Source: Segniliparus rotundus DSM 44985
GTDB taxonomy: Bacteria > Actinomycetota > Actinomycetes > Mycobacteriales > Mycobacteriaceae
DNA length: 64,000 nt
NCBI RefSeq assembly: GCF_000092825.1
Contig: NC_014168.1
Location: 485,946-549,945, forward strand
Direction: 5' to 3'
Part shown: piece by piece, positions 39,601-45,600 of the stretch
How the letters are laid out: each line of letters starts with the position of its first letter
How positions within the stretch are numbered: the first letter of the stretch is position 1
Position numbers: made by a program

Positions 39601-42600
39601 GAGGTCACCTTGCCCGAGGGCAAGGACATGGTCATGCCGGGCGACAACACCGACATCTCGGTGAAGCTGATCCAGCCGGTGGCCATGGAAGAAGGACAGC
39701 GCTTCGCGATCCGCGAGGGCGGCCGCACCGTCGGCGCTGGTCGTGTCACGAAGATCAACAAGTAATTTTTCTTCGGATTGAAAAAGACGGGGCGCAACTA
39801 GTTCTAGTTGCGCCCCGTCTTTTTTCATGTATCTCATTCATATATATTTTCTTTATCAATTCTATATATTTGATCCTGGCTCCGCGGAACGTGTTTTAGG
39901 ACGCATTTCTTGAGCGGAGCAGCGTGTTCTGCGCGTATGCAGTATGCTTGTTTGTCGCGCTGCTGTACTCTAGGGGAGTAGTGCTCGTGCAGGAACCGAA
40001 ACGCTGCTCAACAGCCATGAAAGAGTTAATGACGACTGCAAGGAACATATTTTATGACGAAATTAAGGCCTTTTTATGAAGATATAGAAGCGCACTATGA
40101 CGTGGAGAACTCTATTGAGTTCTTTTCCTTGTGGCTCGACGAGACGCTCGGCTACACCTGCGGGTACTGGCCGAGGCCGAATATGACTTCCGCAGAGGCG
40201 CAGATCGCGAAGTTCGACCTCGCGCTGGGCAAGTTGGGCTTGGAGCCGGGGATGACCCTCCTGGACATCGGCTGCGGTTGGGGAGCCGGGCTGATCCGGG
40301 CCTACGAGAAGTACGACGTGAACGTCATCGGCCTGACCATCAGCCCGAGCCAATACGAGTACACGAAGAAGAAGCTTGCGGCGTTGGACGGCAAGCGCAA
40401 GGCGGAAGTCGTGCTCCAGGGCTGGGAGGAGTACGAGGGGAAAGTGGACCGGATCGTCTCGGTCGGGGCGTTCGAGCATTTCCGCGTCGAACGGCACGGG
40501 GCTTTCTTCGAAAAGGCGTACAGCATGCTCCCCGAGGATGGGAAGATGCTGTTGCATTGCATCGTCGGCTACAGCAGGGCCGCGCTGGAGCAGATGGGCT
40601 TGTGGCAAGTCGACCGCAATCTCATCCGTTACACGCATTTGATCAGGAATTACATCTTCCCCGGCGCGGAGCTGGTGGACCCGCAGTCCATCGTCTCCGA
40701 GGCGGCCAAGGCAAAATTCCGCTGCGACATGATCCAGCCCCTCGGCCTGCACTATGGCAAGACGCTGGACGTCTGGTTGGAGAACTTCATGGCGAAAAAA
40801 GACGAAATCATCGCCTTGAGCTCGCCCGAGCTGTACCAAATCTATATCAACTACCTTGCGGGAAGCGCGCATTATTTCCGCACGGGACATATCAATATCG
40901 CGCAGTTCACCCTCACCAAGAAGCCCCTGCCCTGGCTGGAGACCCCGCCGAACACGCCGCCGTTCGTGTTCAAATCCTGGAACTCCTAGGAGCGACCGGC
41001 TGCTCGGCATCGGCGGAGCCGGAGGCTCCGTGCTGTCGGCCAGGCGCGGAAGACCGTCCTTTTTCGGGCTTGTCAAGAGGTGCTTGCTCCGTGGGTTGTG
41101 AACAATCCTCACCCATGAAAGCGGTGATTATGACCGTCAATTTGAGGTGCGTGTGTAGCTGAATTTCAGGTGCGGGTTGTTTGTGGAGAAGTTCGTAGCT
41201 GTGAATTTCAGGTGCACCTGTAGGTCATGTCCGGGTAGTAGCACGATGGGGTGACCCCGCCAAGATCGAAGGTGGAGCTGTACGCGGCGATCCGACGGGA
41301 CGTGCGTGCGGGGCTCGCGCCGCTCGAGATCCGACGTGCGCACAGGGTGGGGTGGGAGACGATCTATCTGGCGATGGGGTCGGCTTGGCCGAAGAGGTGT
41401 CCTACAACGTCCTCCTGGCCTACGTCCGCGCCCGGCGCCCGGAGATCGCGAAGGAGGCGGGCCGAGCGCCGGCCGAGGTGTTCGTCGCGCAGACCCACCG
41501 CCCCGGAGGGGAGGCCGAGGTCGATTTCGGGGACGTGGTGGACAGCCTGCGCGGGCAGGCGGTGAAGTGCGCCTTGTTCGCGTTCCGCCTCTCCTATTCG
41601 GGGCGTGCGGTGCACAGGGTGTTCCTCTCCGCCGGTCAGGAGGCGTTCTTCGAGGGCCACGCCCACGCGCTCTCTGTGATCGGCGGGGTTCCGTTCGGCA
41701 AGGTCCGCTACGACAACTTGAAATCCGCCGTGGCCACGGTTCTCGGGTTCTCCCGCCAACGGGTGGAGACCGAGCGGTGGATCGCGTTCCGCTCGCACTT
41801 CGGCCTTGAGGCCTTCTACTGCCTACCGGGGATTCCTCGCCGAACTCCTGCTGGGCGAGTGCGACGAGCGCAACCGCCGCCGCGCGGCAAGACGCATCCA
41901 AGCCGCGGGCTTCCCCCGCGACAAGTCGCTGCGCTCGTTCGACTTCGAGGCGAACCCGAACATCGACCCGGCGACCATCCACACTCTCGCGAAATGCGAC
42001 TGGGTGAAGAAAGGCCTGCCGCTCTGCCTGATCGGGGACTCGGGAACCGGCAAGTCCCACCTGCTCATCGCGCTCGGCACCGAGGCCGCGATGGCGGGCC
42101 ATCGGGTCAGACACACGTTGGCGACCAAGCTCGTCAACGAGCTGGTCGAGGCTGCCGACGAGCAACAGCTCGCCAAGACCATCACCCGCTACGGGCGCGC
42201 GGCGGCCATCGGCGGGCTCGGCTACATGGAGCTCGACCGCAAAGGCGCGGAGCTGCTGTTCCAAGTGCTGACCGAGCGCGAGGAGAAAGCATCAGTGGCC
42301 ATCGCCTCCAACGAGCCCTTCGGCGGCTGGACCAAGACCTTCACCGGCCCCCGCCTCTGCGCCGCCATAGTCGACCGGCTCACCTTCGGCGGCCACATCA
42401 TCGAGACCGGCACAGACTCCTACCGCCTCGCCCAAAGCCGCGCGAAATCAGAGACCGGAAACTAGCTCGCAGGCCGCCAGTGTCGTCAGCGCAGTGCTGT
42501 TGCGATGCTCTGAGCGGTCACGACTCTGGCGGTCCTGGCCGCGCACCATGCGAGGGCCTGTCGGTGCTCGTCGAGCGTGTAGTCCGCAGTGGCGTCCGCC

Positions 42601-45600
42601 GCGATGAACGTCTCGATGTCGTTCTGCAGCGCGTCCATGGAGGTGGCCGCGACCCCGGAGAACGTGTAGACGCCGACGATGACGAGCTGGTCCCTGCCCA
42701 AAGACCGCAGAGTGTCGAGCAGATCGGTGTGGAAGAAGGCGCTGATCTTCGATTTCGTGATGAACACGTCAGCGCTCGTTCGCTCCAACGGTGGCACGAT
42801 GGCCCGCTCCGCGTCGTCGTCGGGCATACCTGTGCCATAGAGGTCCAGGAAGAGTCCGCGCTGCTCTGGTGTCATGCCTCCCGGCTGACCGGAGTACAGG
42901 ACGGGGATCCCGCTGGCACGCGCTGTGTCCAGCAAAGACTTGGCGTTGGCCAGCACCGTCTTCATCGGATCCGAGCCGAGTCGATACGGTTTGACGAAAT
43001 AATGCTGCATATCGTGGACGAGCAGAACAGCACGAGAGCGATCCAGGCCCCACGGGGCTAGGGACTTAGGAATCGAAAGCCCGTCGAGCGGATAAGAGAT
43101 CGAGCCCGTCGGGCGCACGTCCGCCCCTGCTTCGCTTCCACCGAACACCCCGGCGAGAGAAGAGGCCGCCAGAGCGGAACCCGCGACGAGCAGCTCACGC
43201 CGACGGAAACCAGACATCCCATTCCTCCTAGAGATCGAGAAGCTGCCAAACCAGCTTACAGACACAGCGCAGGCGCCCCTAGGATTCACCGATATTGATC
43301 ATGGCTCCAGAGCCCCGACACCCCTGAAATTCACCCAGAACCGCCCCTGAAATTCGCAGACCTAATCAAAAGCGGTTTCTTTCTCGTCCTGGGCGGTGAA
43401 GTCCACCCCGTCGGCGTGCGGGCCGAACCAAGTGAGGGCCGCGAGCGAAACGCACGCCGCGCCGACAAGGACCCAGAACGAGACCGGATAACCCCATGCC
43501 GCAGCCATGCCGGTTTGCAGGGTCGCGTTGCACGAGGTGCAGAGATTGCCGAGCTGGTAGGTCACGCCGGGGTAGAAGCCCCGGATGGCGTTGGGGGACA
43601 GCTCGGAGAGATGCGCGGGCACCGCGGCCCAAGCCCCTTGGGTCGTCGCTTGGACGAGGAACATCCCCAAACCGAGCAGCCATGGGTTGTGCGGCACAGT
43701 GAACAGCGGCAGGAGCGGCAGGGTCGTCAGCGAGCCGAGGACGATGACGCCGCGTCGCCCGATCCGGTCGGAGAGCGATCCGAAAAAAACGCCGCCGATG
43801 ATCGCCCCAGCATTCGCGACGATCATGACCCAGTCGGCGACGGCCGAGGACAGCGCGCGGCCCGCGTGCTCGGTCTCCTTCAAAAAGGTCGGGTACAGGT
43901 CTTGGGTGCCGTGGGAGAGCGACGTGAACGCGGTCATGAGCAGGATCAGGTAGCCGAAGCGGCGCAGGACGGCCGGGTCGAAGAACACCGCGCGCACCGA
44001 CGAGCCGTGCGCCCGCATCTTCTCCTGTGTGGACACCCAGACCTCGGACTCTTTGACGAAGGCGCGCACGATGAGGGAGATGAGCGCGGGCAGGATGGAC
44101 AGGCCGAACAGCCAGCGCCAGGAAAGCCCCAGGCAGGAGTGCAAGAACAAATGCGCGACGGAGGCGAAGAGGAAGCCGCTGGCGTAACCGGCCTGCAAGA
44201 TCCCAGAGAAGAAGCCGCGTTTGCCGGGCGGCACCTTCTCCATGGTCAGCGCGGCCCCGATGCCCCATTCCCCGCCCATGCCGATCCCGTAGAGCAGACG
44301 CAGGACCACAAGGACGGCGAAGTTCGGCGCGAAGGCGCCGAGGAACCCCACCGTCGAATAAAAGCACACGTTCACCATCAACGGGACGCGCCTGCCCGCT
44401 TTGTCCGCCCAGATCCCGAACAGGTACGCCCCGAGCGGGCGCATCACCAAGGTGACGGTGATGAGAAAGGTGAGTTGGCGCTTGGAGACATGGAACTCCT
44501 GCCCGATCTCGTTCAACACCAGCGTGAGGATGAAAAAATCGAAGGCGTCCATCGCCCAACCGAGCCACGAGGCGAGGAAGGCGCTGCGTTGGTCGCGGTC
44601 AAGATCGGCCCAAGGGGAAGGCTTGCGCATGTGAGGCAGATTACCTGCCCTGGTTTTCTCGGCGGCGTCTCCCCGCCAAAGCGCATCCGAGCGCACCGGC
44701 CTTAGGAGCCGGGGTGCGCGGCGCGTCCGGCGAGGAGCACCAAGCCGGTCCCCGGATCGAAGATTTCGAAGCAGAAGGCGTGGTCCGCGGCGAAAGAAAT
44801 CGCGGGCGCCGGGGCCGTCGCGCCGCCAGGCCCTGAGACGGGGGGCGGCGGCGCCATCGACACGCCTTGCTCGCCGAACGCCACAGCGGCCTGGCTCGAC
44901 CAGCCGCTCGCCCTGGCTTCGGGCGCGAGGCGGGGAAGGGCGGCCTGGGCGGTTGCTTCTGCGGCTCCGGTCAGGTCGGCAAGCGCGGACCAGCGCGGCA
45001 GGGCAAAGCCCAGCGGTGCGGGCGGGGCGCTCGCCAAGGCGGTGCGGGCCGCGGGCAATATGCCCGAGAGGGAGGCGCGCGGGTCGACGGGGATGACCAG
45101 CCGCATCTCGACGCCGTCGGCGAGCGGGAGCTCTGCGGCCCGCCAACCAGTCCCCGCTGCCGTGCGGGCGAGGACGACGCCGCGCATGGTGGGCGGCTGC
45201 GCCGACGCGCCGCCCGCCGTGGTGAACGGCGCTGGCGAGGTCCATTCAGGCCGGAACGGGAAACGCCACCCCGCCAGCAGTTCGGTCAGATCGGCGAAAT
45301 ACACCCCGTGCTGCGCGCCGAGCCCCGGCATGGGTCCGCTGAAGCGCGCGTTGACCGTGCCCAGAGCCCACCCGTTCACCGCCTCGGCCAGTTTCGGGTC
45401 GCCCCCTCGCGCGAGATAGAGGCCCATGTCGAAGTTTTCGGCGAGCAGGTCGAGGAATTCGGGGGCGACTGCGAGGGACCGGTCCGCGATCAGCGCGGTC
45501 CTGCTGCGCAGAACAGGTGTGCCGTCGGCCCCGGCGTTCGGGACGCTGTCAGGGTCGCCCTGCCACTTTTCGAGTTGGCCGATCATCGCGGCGATCGCAG

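What the first reader, a model, noticed from the sequence alone, without database searches (positions are those of the whole stretch)
41153..43357. Decayed IS21-family element with internal istA/istB deletion and a Tat-secreted isochorismatase-like passenger
Repeated terminal motifs (GAATTTCAGGTGC, twice at the left end, and inverted twice at the right end) delimit about 2.2 kb. Inside, the istA HTH and DDE-core segments are in different frames. The reading then jumps straight into the IstB N-terminal linker, so the istA C-terminal half is deleted. Between istB and the right inverted repeat there is an 800-bp minus-strand gene for a Tat-signal isochorismatase-family protein. IS21 elements normally contain only istAB, so this is either a passenger-carrying derivative or two partial copies bracketing a captured gene. 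The MFS transporter stop codon abuts the right inverted repeat.
Basis: partly seen in the sequence, partly recalled or inferred. Interest (0 to 1): 0.55.

Follow-up and report, generated by a model that had tools for sequence, protein, structure and literature searches.

The report
Decayed IS21 element carrying isochorismatase cargo
A broken-down IS21-family jumping gene in Segniliparus rotundus brought in, and then stranded, an intact gene for a probably exported isochorismatase-like enzyme; similar cargo-carrying IS21 elements are frequent among the actinobacterial relatives sampled here, although I found no description of them in the literature I could search.

Summary
The element spans 41125-43368 (2244 bp), slightly wider than reported. 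It has 5'-TG...CA-3' tips. Three GAATTTCAGG(T/G)GC-type repeats sit 14/37/79 nt from the left tip and 14/37/82 nt from the right tip. The 23-bp spacing of the outer two repeats is the IS21 hallmark. A perfect 7-bp target duplication (AAAGCGG) flanks the whole unit.

Inside, istA is cut by a 154-bp frameshifting deletion, and a ~1.05-kb deletion fuses IstA residue ~241 to IstB residue ~55. The IstB Walker B motif is destroyed. An intact 243-codon PhzD/EntB-type isochorismatase gene (minus strand) fills the 809 bp between the istB stop and the innermost right repeat.

Segniliparus rugosus and a Segniliparus MAG have neither the IS nor the isochorismatase at this locus. The nearest isochorismatase homologues (59-65% identity) are IS-free chromosomal genes in Mycobacteroides.

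Seven intact relatives carry unrelated cargo in the same slot, including merR-merA, a mycothiol S-transferase, a glyoxalase and a TetR regulator. Each whole unit has a perfect 6-7 bp target duplication.

This is therefore a dead, single-copy passenger-carrying IS21 ("transporter IS"), not two partial copies. Interest is modest; the general cargo slot is the more notable point.

The parts
41118..41124 (.). Left copy of the 7-bp target-site duplication, AAAGCGG
   Evidence: Directly abuts the left tip and is identical to 43369-43375. The chance of this at fixed positions is about 4^-7.
41125..41215 (+). Left terminal inverted repeat. Tip is 5'-TG. Repeats L1 41139-41150, L2 41162-41173 and L3 41204-41215 lie at offsets 14/37/79 from the tip.
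   Evidence: The 23-bp L1-L2 spacing matches what is described for IS21 TIRs (PMC10122671). L001 and L080 have identical offsets.
41251..41391 (+). istA fragment 1, the N-terminal HTH part (IstA residues 1-47)
   Evidence: tblastn: 62% identity to intact IstA of L001/L018, E about 1e-13.
41387..41392 (+). Junction of deletion 1. About 154 bp (IstA residues 48-98) are lost at a GGCCGA microhomology, which shifts the frame.
   Evidence: Intact homologues carry GGCCGA at both break points, and the frame changes between the two istA fragments. The deletion size is inferred from the homologues.
41394..41823 (+). istA fragment 2, the first part of the catalytic core (IstA residues 99 to ~241)
   Evidence: 72-80% identity to intact IstA, E 1e-69 to 1e-76. 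NCBIfam transpos_IS21 E 7.5e-28, which is below the curated cut-off because the protein is truncated.
41823..41824 (+). Junction of deletion 2. About 1.05 kb is lost, from IstA residue ~242 to IstB residue ~54 (TGCC|TACC).
   Evidence: Comparison with intact istAB of L001, L018 and L017. Only 1-2 bp of microhomology.
41824..42465 (+). istB fragment (IstB residues ~55-266 plus stop). Walker A is intact. Walker B DLLCIDELGY has become A--AAIGGLGY (about 42199-42216).
   Evidence: Pfam IstB_IS21 9e-51. NCBIfam IS21_help_AAA 206 bits against a cut-off of 200. 10 of 155 conserved columns are changed, against 0-4 in intact controls.
42466..43274 (.). Cargo slot, 809 bp between the istB stop and the innermost right repeat
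   Evidence: In plain relatives the istB stop overlaps the inner right repeat, and the right tip lies only about 50-90 bp beyond it. Seven intact relatives hold unrelated genes at this position.
42486..43217 (-). Passenger gene: a 243-aa PhzD/EntB-type isochorismatase with an N-terminal twin-arginine signal-like extension (MSGFRRRELLV...AGA|DV)
   Evidence: Pfam Isochorismatase 1e-37. Best PDB match is PhzD 1nf9, 4e-48. 100% identical to S. rotundus 'Isochorismatase'. D69 and K155 are retained. Three of 49 conserved columns are changed.
43275..43368 (-). Right terminal inverted repeat. R3 43275-43286, R2 43320-43331 and R1 43343-43354 lie at offsets 82/37/14 from the tip. Tip is CA-3' at 43367-43368.
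   Evidence: L001 has the same 14/37/82 offsets.
43369..43375 (.). Right copy of the target-site duplication, AAAGCGG
43362..44630 (-). Target gene: an MFS transporter whose 3' end received the insertion. The last codon (Asp) and the TAG stop are IS-encoded.
   Evidence: Pfam MFS_1 and Sugar_tr. Reading across the reconstructed empty site continues the frame for 52 more codons. Orthologues in S. rugosus and the MAG end 8-11 residues after GVDF.

Best explanation
This is the immobilised relic of an IS21-family unit transposon (a 'transporter IS') that was originally about 3.45 kb long.

Original layout: left end with three IstA-binding repeats, istA, istB, one cargo gene (the isochorismatase, in opposite orientation), then the right end with three repeats.

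How it moved (inferred from established IS21 biochemistry). An IstA tetramer bound the L1/L2 and R1/R2 repeats and synapsed the two ends. It cleaved at the terminal CA. With the IstB AAA+ helper it inserted the whole unit into the 3' tail of the MFS transporter gene in the S. rotundus lineage, duplicating 7 bp (AAAGCGG). The cargo lies inside the innermost right repeat, so it travelled with the element.

What happened next (shown). A 154-bp deletion in istA, a ~1.05-kb deletion fusing istA to istB, and loss of the IstB Walker B motif destroyed the transposition functions. No close IstB copy from S. rotundus turned up in the protein database. The cargo gene is therefore stranded.

State of the cargo. 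The isochorismatase ORF is still intact, with the catalytic Asp and Lys in place. It now lies 144 bp downstream of, and co-oriented with, the MFS gene. Expression by read-through from the MFS gene, or from an unidentified promoter of its own, is an inference. The product is probably an exported PhzD/EntB-like hydrolase of unknown substrate.
For: - Family-typical ends, TG/CA tips and 23-bp repeat spacing (PMC10122671).
- A perfect 7-bp target duplication around the whole unit.
- IstA and IstB remnants 72-83% identical to intact IS21-family proteins.
- Two deletions mapped against intact homologues, plus the Walker B loss.
- S. rugosus and a Segniliparus MAG keep the serpin-MFS ... CMAS-tuf synteny but have no IS and no isochorismatase there.
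- No Segniliparus protein other than the S. rotundus one is among the 120 best isochorismatase homologues. The nearest (59-65% identity) are chromosomal genes beside ahpD-ahpC-oxyR in Mycobacteroides and Mycobacterium sp., without any IS.
- Seven intact relatives carry unrelated cargo in the same slot, and each whole unit is flanked by a perfect 6-7 bp duplication: L001, L080, L018, L081, L084, L087 and L092.
- L001 and L080 share about 88% identity over the left end, istAB and about 200 bp beyond, and again over the last 94 bp. They differ only in the cargo between those regions.
Against: - No sibling copy carrying the same cargo exists in any collection searched. IstB is at most 83% and the isochorismatase at most 65% identical to anything else. 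Movement of this particular unit therefore rests on the target duplication and on analogy.
- The empty site cannot be reconstructed cleanly. Relatives have a saccharopine-dehydrogenase-like gene and a second CMAS paralogue between MFS and CMAS that S. rotundus lacks. The 135 bp left of the IS match nothing in them.
- Three residues conserved in at least 95% of homologues are changed in the isochorismatase (P146R, W156S, A185T), so it may be drifting.
- No promoter or terminator consensus was found.
- The Tat motif is not recognised by Pfam TAT_signal.
Confidence: 0.85

Rival explanations
1. A plain IS21 element inserted here first. The isochorismatase gene was then placed between istB and the right end in situ, by illegitimate or homologous recombination, so the cargo never transposed.
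For: No second copy of this exact unit is known. The cargo slot clearly exchanges content over evolutionary time, as the L001 versus L080 comparison shows, so some recombination process does act there.
Against: The gene sits exactly between the istB stop and R3 with only 20 bp and 57 bp of spacer, and no foreign flanks or scars are visible. Seven relatives with cargo in the same slot have whole-unit target duplications at unrelated sites, so loaded elements do transpose. No isochorismatase source gene is known in Segniliparus.
Confidence: 0.09
2. The structure is the remnant of a composite arrangement. Two IS21 copies, or one copy plus a solo right end, bracketed a chromosomal isochorismatase gene, and the inner IS parts were later deleted.
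For: IS21-based composite transposons are reported in the literature (discussion in PMC12927932).
Against: There is only one left and one right end, each with the full three-repeat set at family-typical offsets. tblastn finds no further IstA or IstB sequence anywhere in the 64-kb window. The motif search finds no further end. A single 7-bp duplication flanks the unit. This scenario may describe how cargo was first captured in an ancestor, but not the structure at this locus.
Confidence: 0.05
3. The repeats are chance or belong to an unrelated repeat family, and the isochorismatase is a native chromosomal gene next to an unrelated IS fragment.
For: None beyond the absence of a clean empty site.
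Against: Motif enrichment (0 of 100 shuffles). A 46-nt inverted repeat with offsets identical to intact IS21 relatives. A perfect target duplication. The gene is absent from this locus in congeners.
Confidence: 0.01

Closest known systems
IS21 family insertion sequences (IS21, IS5376; actinobacterial members annotated 'IS21 family transposase / IS21-like helper ATPase IstB')
   Same: istA followed by istB. Terminal inverted repeats built from multiple direct repeats with 23-bp spacing. TG/CA tips. Short target duplication.
   Different: It carries a non-transposition gene between istB and the right end. It is dead: two internal deletions and loss of Walker B. The target duplication is 7 bp, against 5 bp reported for IS5376.
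Transporter IS (tIS): IS-like elements with passenger genes. [quoted passage not shown] IS481, ISL3 and ISNCY examples are reported on Arthrobacter plasmids (PMC6305408).
   Same: A single pair of IS ends and one target duplication enclose the transposition genes plus one or a few passenger genes.
   Different: The backbone is IS21 (two-gene istAB). I found no paper describing IS21-family tIS. ISfinder itself could not be consulted.
Intact cargo-bearing IS21 relatives found here: pMu0050 of Mycolicibacterium sp. MU0050 (L001), pTY66_01 (L080), a M. abscessus contig (L018), a Paenarthrobacter ureafaciens plasmid with merR-merA (L092), and Streptomyces and Nocardia plasmids (L081, L084, L087)
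   Same: Same end architecture (offsets 14/37/79 and 14/37/82 in L001 and L080). Same cargo position. Whole-unit 6-7 bp target duplications. IstB 74-82% identical.
   Different: They have intact istAB, different repeat sequences (for example GATTCGGGAGTC) and unrelated cargo.
PhzD / EntB / VibB / DhbB isochorismatases (PDB 1nf9, 2fq1, 3tb4)
   Same: 45-50% identity over the whole catalytic domain. The Asp and Lys that align with the HDMQ and TK motifs are conserved.
   Different: It has a 30-35 residue N-terminal signal-like extension with RRR. It is not in a siderophore or phenazine cluster. W156S lies next to the catalytic Lys. The substrate is unknown.

Membership tests
IS21 family | IstA DDE transposase with an N-terminal HTH | tested here: met
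   Two fragments match IstA residues 1-47 and 99-245 of intact IS21-family IstA at 62-80% identity. NCBIfam transpos_IS21 E 7.5e-28. Truncated, so non-functional.
IS21 family | IstB AAA+ helper ATPase encoded downstream of istA | tested here: met
   Pfam IstB_IS21 9e-51. NCBIfam IS21_help_AAA 206 bits, above the cut-off of 200. The N-terminal ~54 residues and Walker B are lost.
IS21 family | Terminal inverted repeats made of at least two direct repeats (L1/L2, R1/R2) spaced 23 bp apart | tested here: met
   Repeats at offsets 14 and 37 from each tip, plus a third at 79 or 82. The criterion is taken from PMC10122671.
IS21 family | 5'-TG ... CA-3' termini | tested here: met
   TGATTA at 41125 and TAATCA ending at 43368.
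IS21 family | Short target-site duplication (5 bp for IS5376; a family range of 4-8 bp from my memory of ISfinder) | tested here: met
   7-bp AAAGCGG on both sides. Relatives have 6-7 bp.
Transporter IS (tIS) | Passenger gene(s) unrelated to transposition located inside the IS ends | tested here: met
   The isochorismatase CDS 42486-43217 lies between the istB stop (42465) and R3 (43275).
Transporter IS (tIS) | The loaded unit transposes as a whole (multiple copies, or a target duplication around the whole unit) | tested here: inconclusive
   A target duplication surrounds the whole unit, but only one copy exists. The element is absent from this locus in congeners. Seven relatives show whole-unit duplications.
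Isochorismatase family, PhzD/EntB subgroup | Isochorismatase fold with the catalytic Asp and Lys and no nucleophilic Cys | tested here: met
   Pfam PF00857 1e-37. PhzD 1nf9 4e-48. D69 and K155 are invariant in alignment A2, and GVYTFSG replaces the Cys motif. Enzyme activity was not tested.
Tat-exported proteins | Twin-arginine signal peptide (S/T-R-R-x-F-L-K, moderately hydrophobic h-region, AxA cleavage site) | tested here: inconclusive
   FRRRELLV, then LLVAGSALAASSLAGVFGG, then AGA|DV are visible. Orthologues read MRRRTFLRS...AHA|DV. Pfam TAT_signal gives no hit for S. rotundus and only E 0.046 (below cut-off) for the M. immunogenum orthologue.

The most novel reading that the evidence does not exclude
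A widespread actinobacterial clade of IS21 elements has a dedicated, frequently reloaded cargo slot between the istB stop and the innermost right repeat. This turns a supposedly two-gene IS into a unit transposon for single adaptive genes.

Cargo seen here includes merR-merA, a possible auxiliary TrpRS, a mycothiol S-transferase, a glyoxalase, a TetR regulator, DUF6221 and an exported isochorismatase. The S. rotundus locus would be one such delivery, followed by loss of the vehicle and retention of the cargo.

I found no description of this class in the searchable literature. One source states that tIS are restricted to the IS1595 and IS66 families.
Probability: 0.45. Interest if true: 0.5.

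Novelty: new variant of a known kind. Interest (0 to 1): 0.4.

Why it matters
For S. rotundus, this explains how a gene otherwise unknown in the genus arrived: a probably exported PhzD/EntB-like hydrolase, delivered by the IS. It also shows that the MFS transporter now ends on IS-encoded codons.

More generally, IS21 elements are usually treated as carrying only istAB. On that view, genes next to them are mobilised only by composite structures. The survey here points to a different picture:
- Many actinobacterial IS21 relatives carry one to three extra genes inside their ends, including mercury-resistance genes.
- These loaded units move as a whole.
- Annotation pipelines and mobile-element censuses that end IS21 at the istB stop will therefore miss mobile cargo.

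Tried and rejected
- Pfam on the istA fragments gave no hit at E 0.01. tblastn with intact IstA and NCBIfam were needed instead.
- No GAATTTCAGGTGC-type repeats occur in the closest plasmid relative L001. The repeat sequence is element-specific, although its positions are conserved.
It did not return S. rotundus itself, so I could not scan the rest of that genome for other IS21 ends.
- The 135 bp between CMAS and the left tip match nothing in S. rugosus or the MAG: scores of 23-25 against a shuffle maximum of 28-29.
- The consensus promoter and terminator scan of 41000-43500 found nothing.
- The hairpin overlapping the 3' end of the isochorismatase gene is not more stable than shuffles, z -0.98.
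- Base composition does not set the element apart from its surroundings.
- An automated 23-bp-spacing repeat finder recovered only one of the 12 surveyed plasmid loci. Ends were therefore located by local alignment and inspected by eye. L019, L082, L085, L089 and L090 stayed unresolved. The L088 (trpS) and L083 ends are weak or lack a target duplication.
- I considered that the small minus-strand ORFs after istB might be a conserved third IS gene. I rejected this because the cargo proteins are mutually unrelated.
- Six public read-set assemblies carrying the locus are 100% identical to the window. S. rotundus is used in mock communities (PMC4619416), so these assemblies say nothing about population variation.

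
Full report
**Identity of the window.** The isochorismatase ORF is 100% identical to 'Isochorismatase [Segniliparus rotundus DSM 44985]', and the IstB fragment to an S. rotundus entry. Six public assemblies carrying the locus are base-for-base identical to the window. The neighbours are tuf, a mycolic-acid cyclopropane synthase (CMAS), an MFS transporter and a serpin.

**The observation.** The motif GAATTTCAGGTGC is strongly enriched: 6 matches with up to 2 mismatches against 1.12 expected, and none of 100 shuffles reached 6. 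All matches but one cluster at the two ends of the region.

The repeat finder extends the ends to a 46-nt inverted repeat, 41125-41170 / 43323-43368. Aligning the two ends shows three repeats on each side.

Measured from the tips, the repeats start at 14, 37 and 79 nt on the left and at 14, 37 and 82 nt on the right. The 23-bp spacing of the outer two is the spacing reported for the L1/L2 and R1/R2 IstA-binding repeats of IS21-family ends (PMC10122671). The tips are 5'-TG and CA-3'.

The 7-mer AAAGCGG occurs immediately outside both tips, at 41118-41124 and 43369-43375. The element is therefore 41125-43368, 2244 bp, with a target-site duplication.

**The transposition genes.** I ran tblastn with intact IstA and IstB proteins from three relatives.
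- IstA residues 1-47 lie at 41251-41391.
- IstA residues 99-245 lie at 41394-41834, in a different frame.
- IstB residues ~55-266 start directly at ~41821.

Comparison with the intact DNA resolves two deletions. The first is a 154-bp loss between two GGCCGA microhomologies, which accounts for the frame change. The second is a loss of about 1.05 kb with its junction at 41823|41824 (TGCC|TACC).

IstB keeps Walker A but has lost Walker B: DLLCIDELGY has become A--AAIGGLGY. Ten of 155 columns conserved in at least 95% of 119 homologues are altered, against 0-4 in intact controls.

Pfam and NCBIfam confirm the IS21 assignment. No other IstA or IstB sequence occurs in the window. The best IstB match among 5.8 billion proteins is only 83% identical, so no close IstB copy turned up in the protein database. 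The element is non-autonomous and, as far as I can tell, cannot be mobilised.

**The passenger.** The 809 bp between the istB stop (42465) and the innermost right repeat (43275) hold one minus-strand gene, 42486-43217. It has 243 codons and is preceded by AGGAGG.

The protein belongs to the PhzD/EntB/VibB branch of the isochorismatase family. Pfam gives 1e-37 and PhzD (PDB 1nf9) gives 4e-48. The Asp and Lys of the HDMQ and TK motifs are conserved.

The protein and its closest homologues carry an extra 30-35 N-terminal residues with RRR, a mildly hydrophobic stretch and an A-x-A site. The Streptomyces enzymes lack this extension.

This looks like a Tat signal. However, Pfam TAT_signal does not score the S. 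rotundus sequence and scores the M. immunogenum orthologue only at E 0.046. I therefore rate the Tat claim as plausible, not shown.

Three residues conserved in at least 95% of homologues are replaced (P146R, W156S, A185T), against 0-1 in controls. The ORF is intact but may be under relaxed constraint.

They do not.

Segniliparus rugosus (MFS 79% identical) and a Segniliparus MAG (88%) keep the serpin-MFS ... CMAS-tuf synteny. They have neither IS21 sequence nor an isochorismatase there. Instead they have a saccharopine-dehydrogenase-like gene and a second CMAS paralogue that S. rotundus lacks.

No other Segniliparus protein appears among the 120 best isochorismatase homologues. The nearest, at 59-65% identity, are chromosomal genes between cutinase or P450 genes and ahpD-ahpC-oxyR in Mycobacteroides and a Mycobacterium sp. 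No IS is nearby.

**The insertion site.** The site lies in the last codons of the MFS gene. The IS contributes one nucleotide of the final Phe codon, an Asp codon and the TAG stop. Reading across the reconstructed empty site would extend the protein by 52 residues.

The empty site cannot be matched to relatives, because the 135 bp to the left of the IS are unique. The intact target duplication argues that the loss of the intervening genes was not caused by this IS. The order of these events is an inference.

**Do IS21 elements really carry cargo?** I located the ends of relatives chosen only by IstB similarity. They came from plasmids, genomes and metagenomes. Ends were found by local alignment and checked against the shared end architecture.

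Plain elements end 50-90 bp after the istB stop. These are L015/L017, L054/L055, L038, L086 and L091.

Seven intact elements have extra DNA in the same slot, and each whole unit is bounded by a perfect target duplication:

| Locus | Length | Cargo | Target duplication |
|---|---|---|---|
| L001 | 3662 bp | small ORF plus Glyoxalase_7 protein | CACGGA |
| L080 | 4365 bp | TetR plus two hypothetical genes | AGCATG |
| L018 | 3264 bp | mycothiol S-transferase / DinB_2 | CTCACGG |
| L081 | 3285 bp | 142-aa hypothetical | GTCATC |
| L084 | 3112 bp | no annotated gene | CCACCGC |
| L087 | 3288 bp | 150-aa hypothetical | ACACCA |
| L092 | 5510 bp | merR-merA plus a nested IS5 | GACTCG |

Further elements have cargo but no clean duplication: L040 with a DUF6221 gene, the L047/L049/L050/L051 group, L083, and L088 with trpS (weak ends).

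The cargo proteins are unrelated to one another. This is a slot with variable content, not a conserved third gene.

L001 and L080 are about 88% identical from the left tip to about 200 bp past istB, and again over the last 94 bp, which is exactly R3 to the tip. They differ completely in between.

The sample is small and biased towards close relatives of the S. rotundus IstB. Several loci stayed unresolved. The frequency (roughly two thirds of the resolved elements) should therefore be taken only as 'common'.

**Interpretation.** The S. rotundus element is a dead member of this cargo-carrying IS21 group. The mechanism of movement is inferred from established IS21 biochemistry (PMC10122671, PMC11208146): IstA tetramer on L1/L2 and R1/R2, cleavage at the terminal CA, and IstB-assisted target capture. 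Here it is supported only by the end architecture and the target duplication.

How cargo first enters the slot is unknown. Capture between an IS and a downstream right end, followed by loss of the inner end, is a possibility, but I saw no scars.

The 'two partial copies' alternative is not supported at this locus. In-situ acquisition after insertion cannot be excluded, but nothing favours it.

The cargo gene is co-oriented with the MFS gene and lies 144 bp downstream of its stop. No terminator-like site lies between them, so read-through expression is conceivable but untested.

**Novelty.** Transporter IS are a known concept (PMC3129680). [quoted passage not shown] Another paper reports IS481, ISL3 and ISNCY examples.

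For IS21, the papers I could search mention only composite transposons. No paper combined 'IS21 family', istB and passenger. ISfinder could not be queried, so prior curation there is possible.

I classify the finding as a new variant of a known kind. The locus itself is of modest interest. The more interesting by-product is the recurrent cargo slot in actinobacterial IS21 elements.

Noticed in passing
L092 (Paenarthrobacter ureafaciens plasmid NZ_CP101187), locus 2537-8046: A 5.5-kb IS21-family unit carries merR-merA, plus a nested IS5, between istB and the right end. It is flanked by a perfect 6-bp duplication, GACTCG. In effect this is a mercury-resistance unit transposon on an IS21 backbone.
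   Followed up: partly
L088 (Microbacterium sp. No. 7 plasmid B), locus about 2522-6438: A tryptophanyl-tRNA synthetase gene (trpS) sits 9 bp after the istB stop on the opposite strand and may lie inside the IS21 ends. The inverted repeat is weak (score 38 against a shuffle maximum of 34) and there is no clear target duplication. IstB matches of the same strength also occur on plasmid A of the same strain (H87, two places).
   Followed up: partly
window 45887-48592: A block of about 2.7 kb encoding an FGGY-family sugar kinase and a zinc alcohol dehydrogenase has no counterpart at this position in S. rugosus or the Segniliparus MAG. It lies between an LPG-synthase-like gene and the serpin gene.
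   Followed up: no
window 40990-41124 compared with L020 7263-9650 and L021 7269-9700: S. rotundus lacks a saccharopine-dehydrogenase-like gene and a second CMAS paralogue that lie between the MFS and CMAS genes in both congeners. The remaining 135 bp match nothing in them. The intact target duplication suggests the loss was not caused by the IS.
   Followed up: partly
L008-L014 (Mycobacteroides immunogenum, Mycobacterium sp. CBMA271), gene at 5001-5735: A subfamily of PhzD/EntB-like isochorismatases carries a conserved MRRRTFL...AHA|DV signal-like N-terminus. It is syntenic with cutinase or P450 genes on one side and ahpD-ahpC-oxyR on the other. An exported 'isochorismatase' next to the peroxide-stress locus has no obvious substrate.
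   Followed up: partly
window about 44702-46060 (minus strand): A serpin-domain gene lies directly upstream of the MFS gene and is conserved in all three Segniliparus genomes. The stretch 44600-45400 reaches 72-78% G+C.
   Followed up: no
L089 (Mycobacterium avium plasmid pMARIA), locus 1-5625: One IS21 element is inserted into the istA of another (nested IS21 copies). Each istB is followed by small opposite-strand ORFs, including a DUF3024 gene. The ends were not resolved.
   Followed up: no
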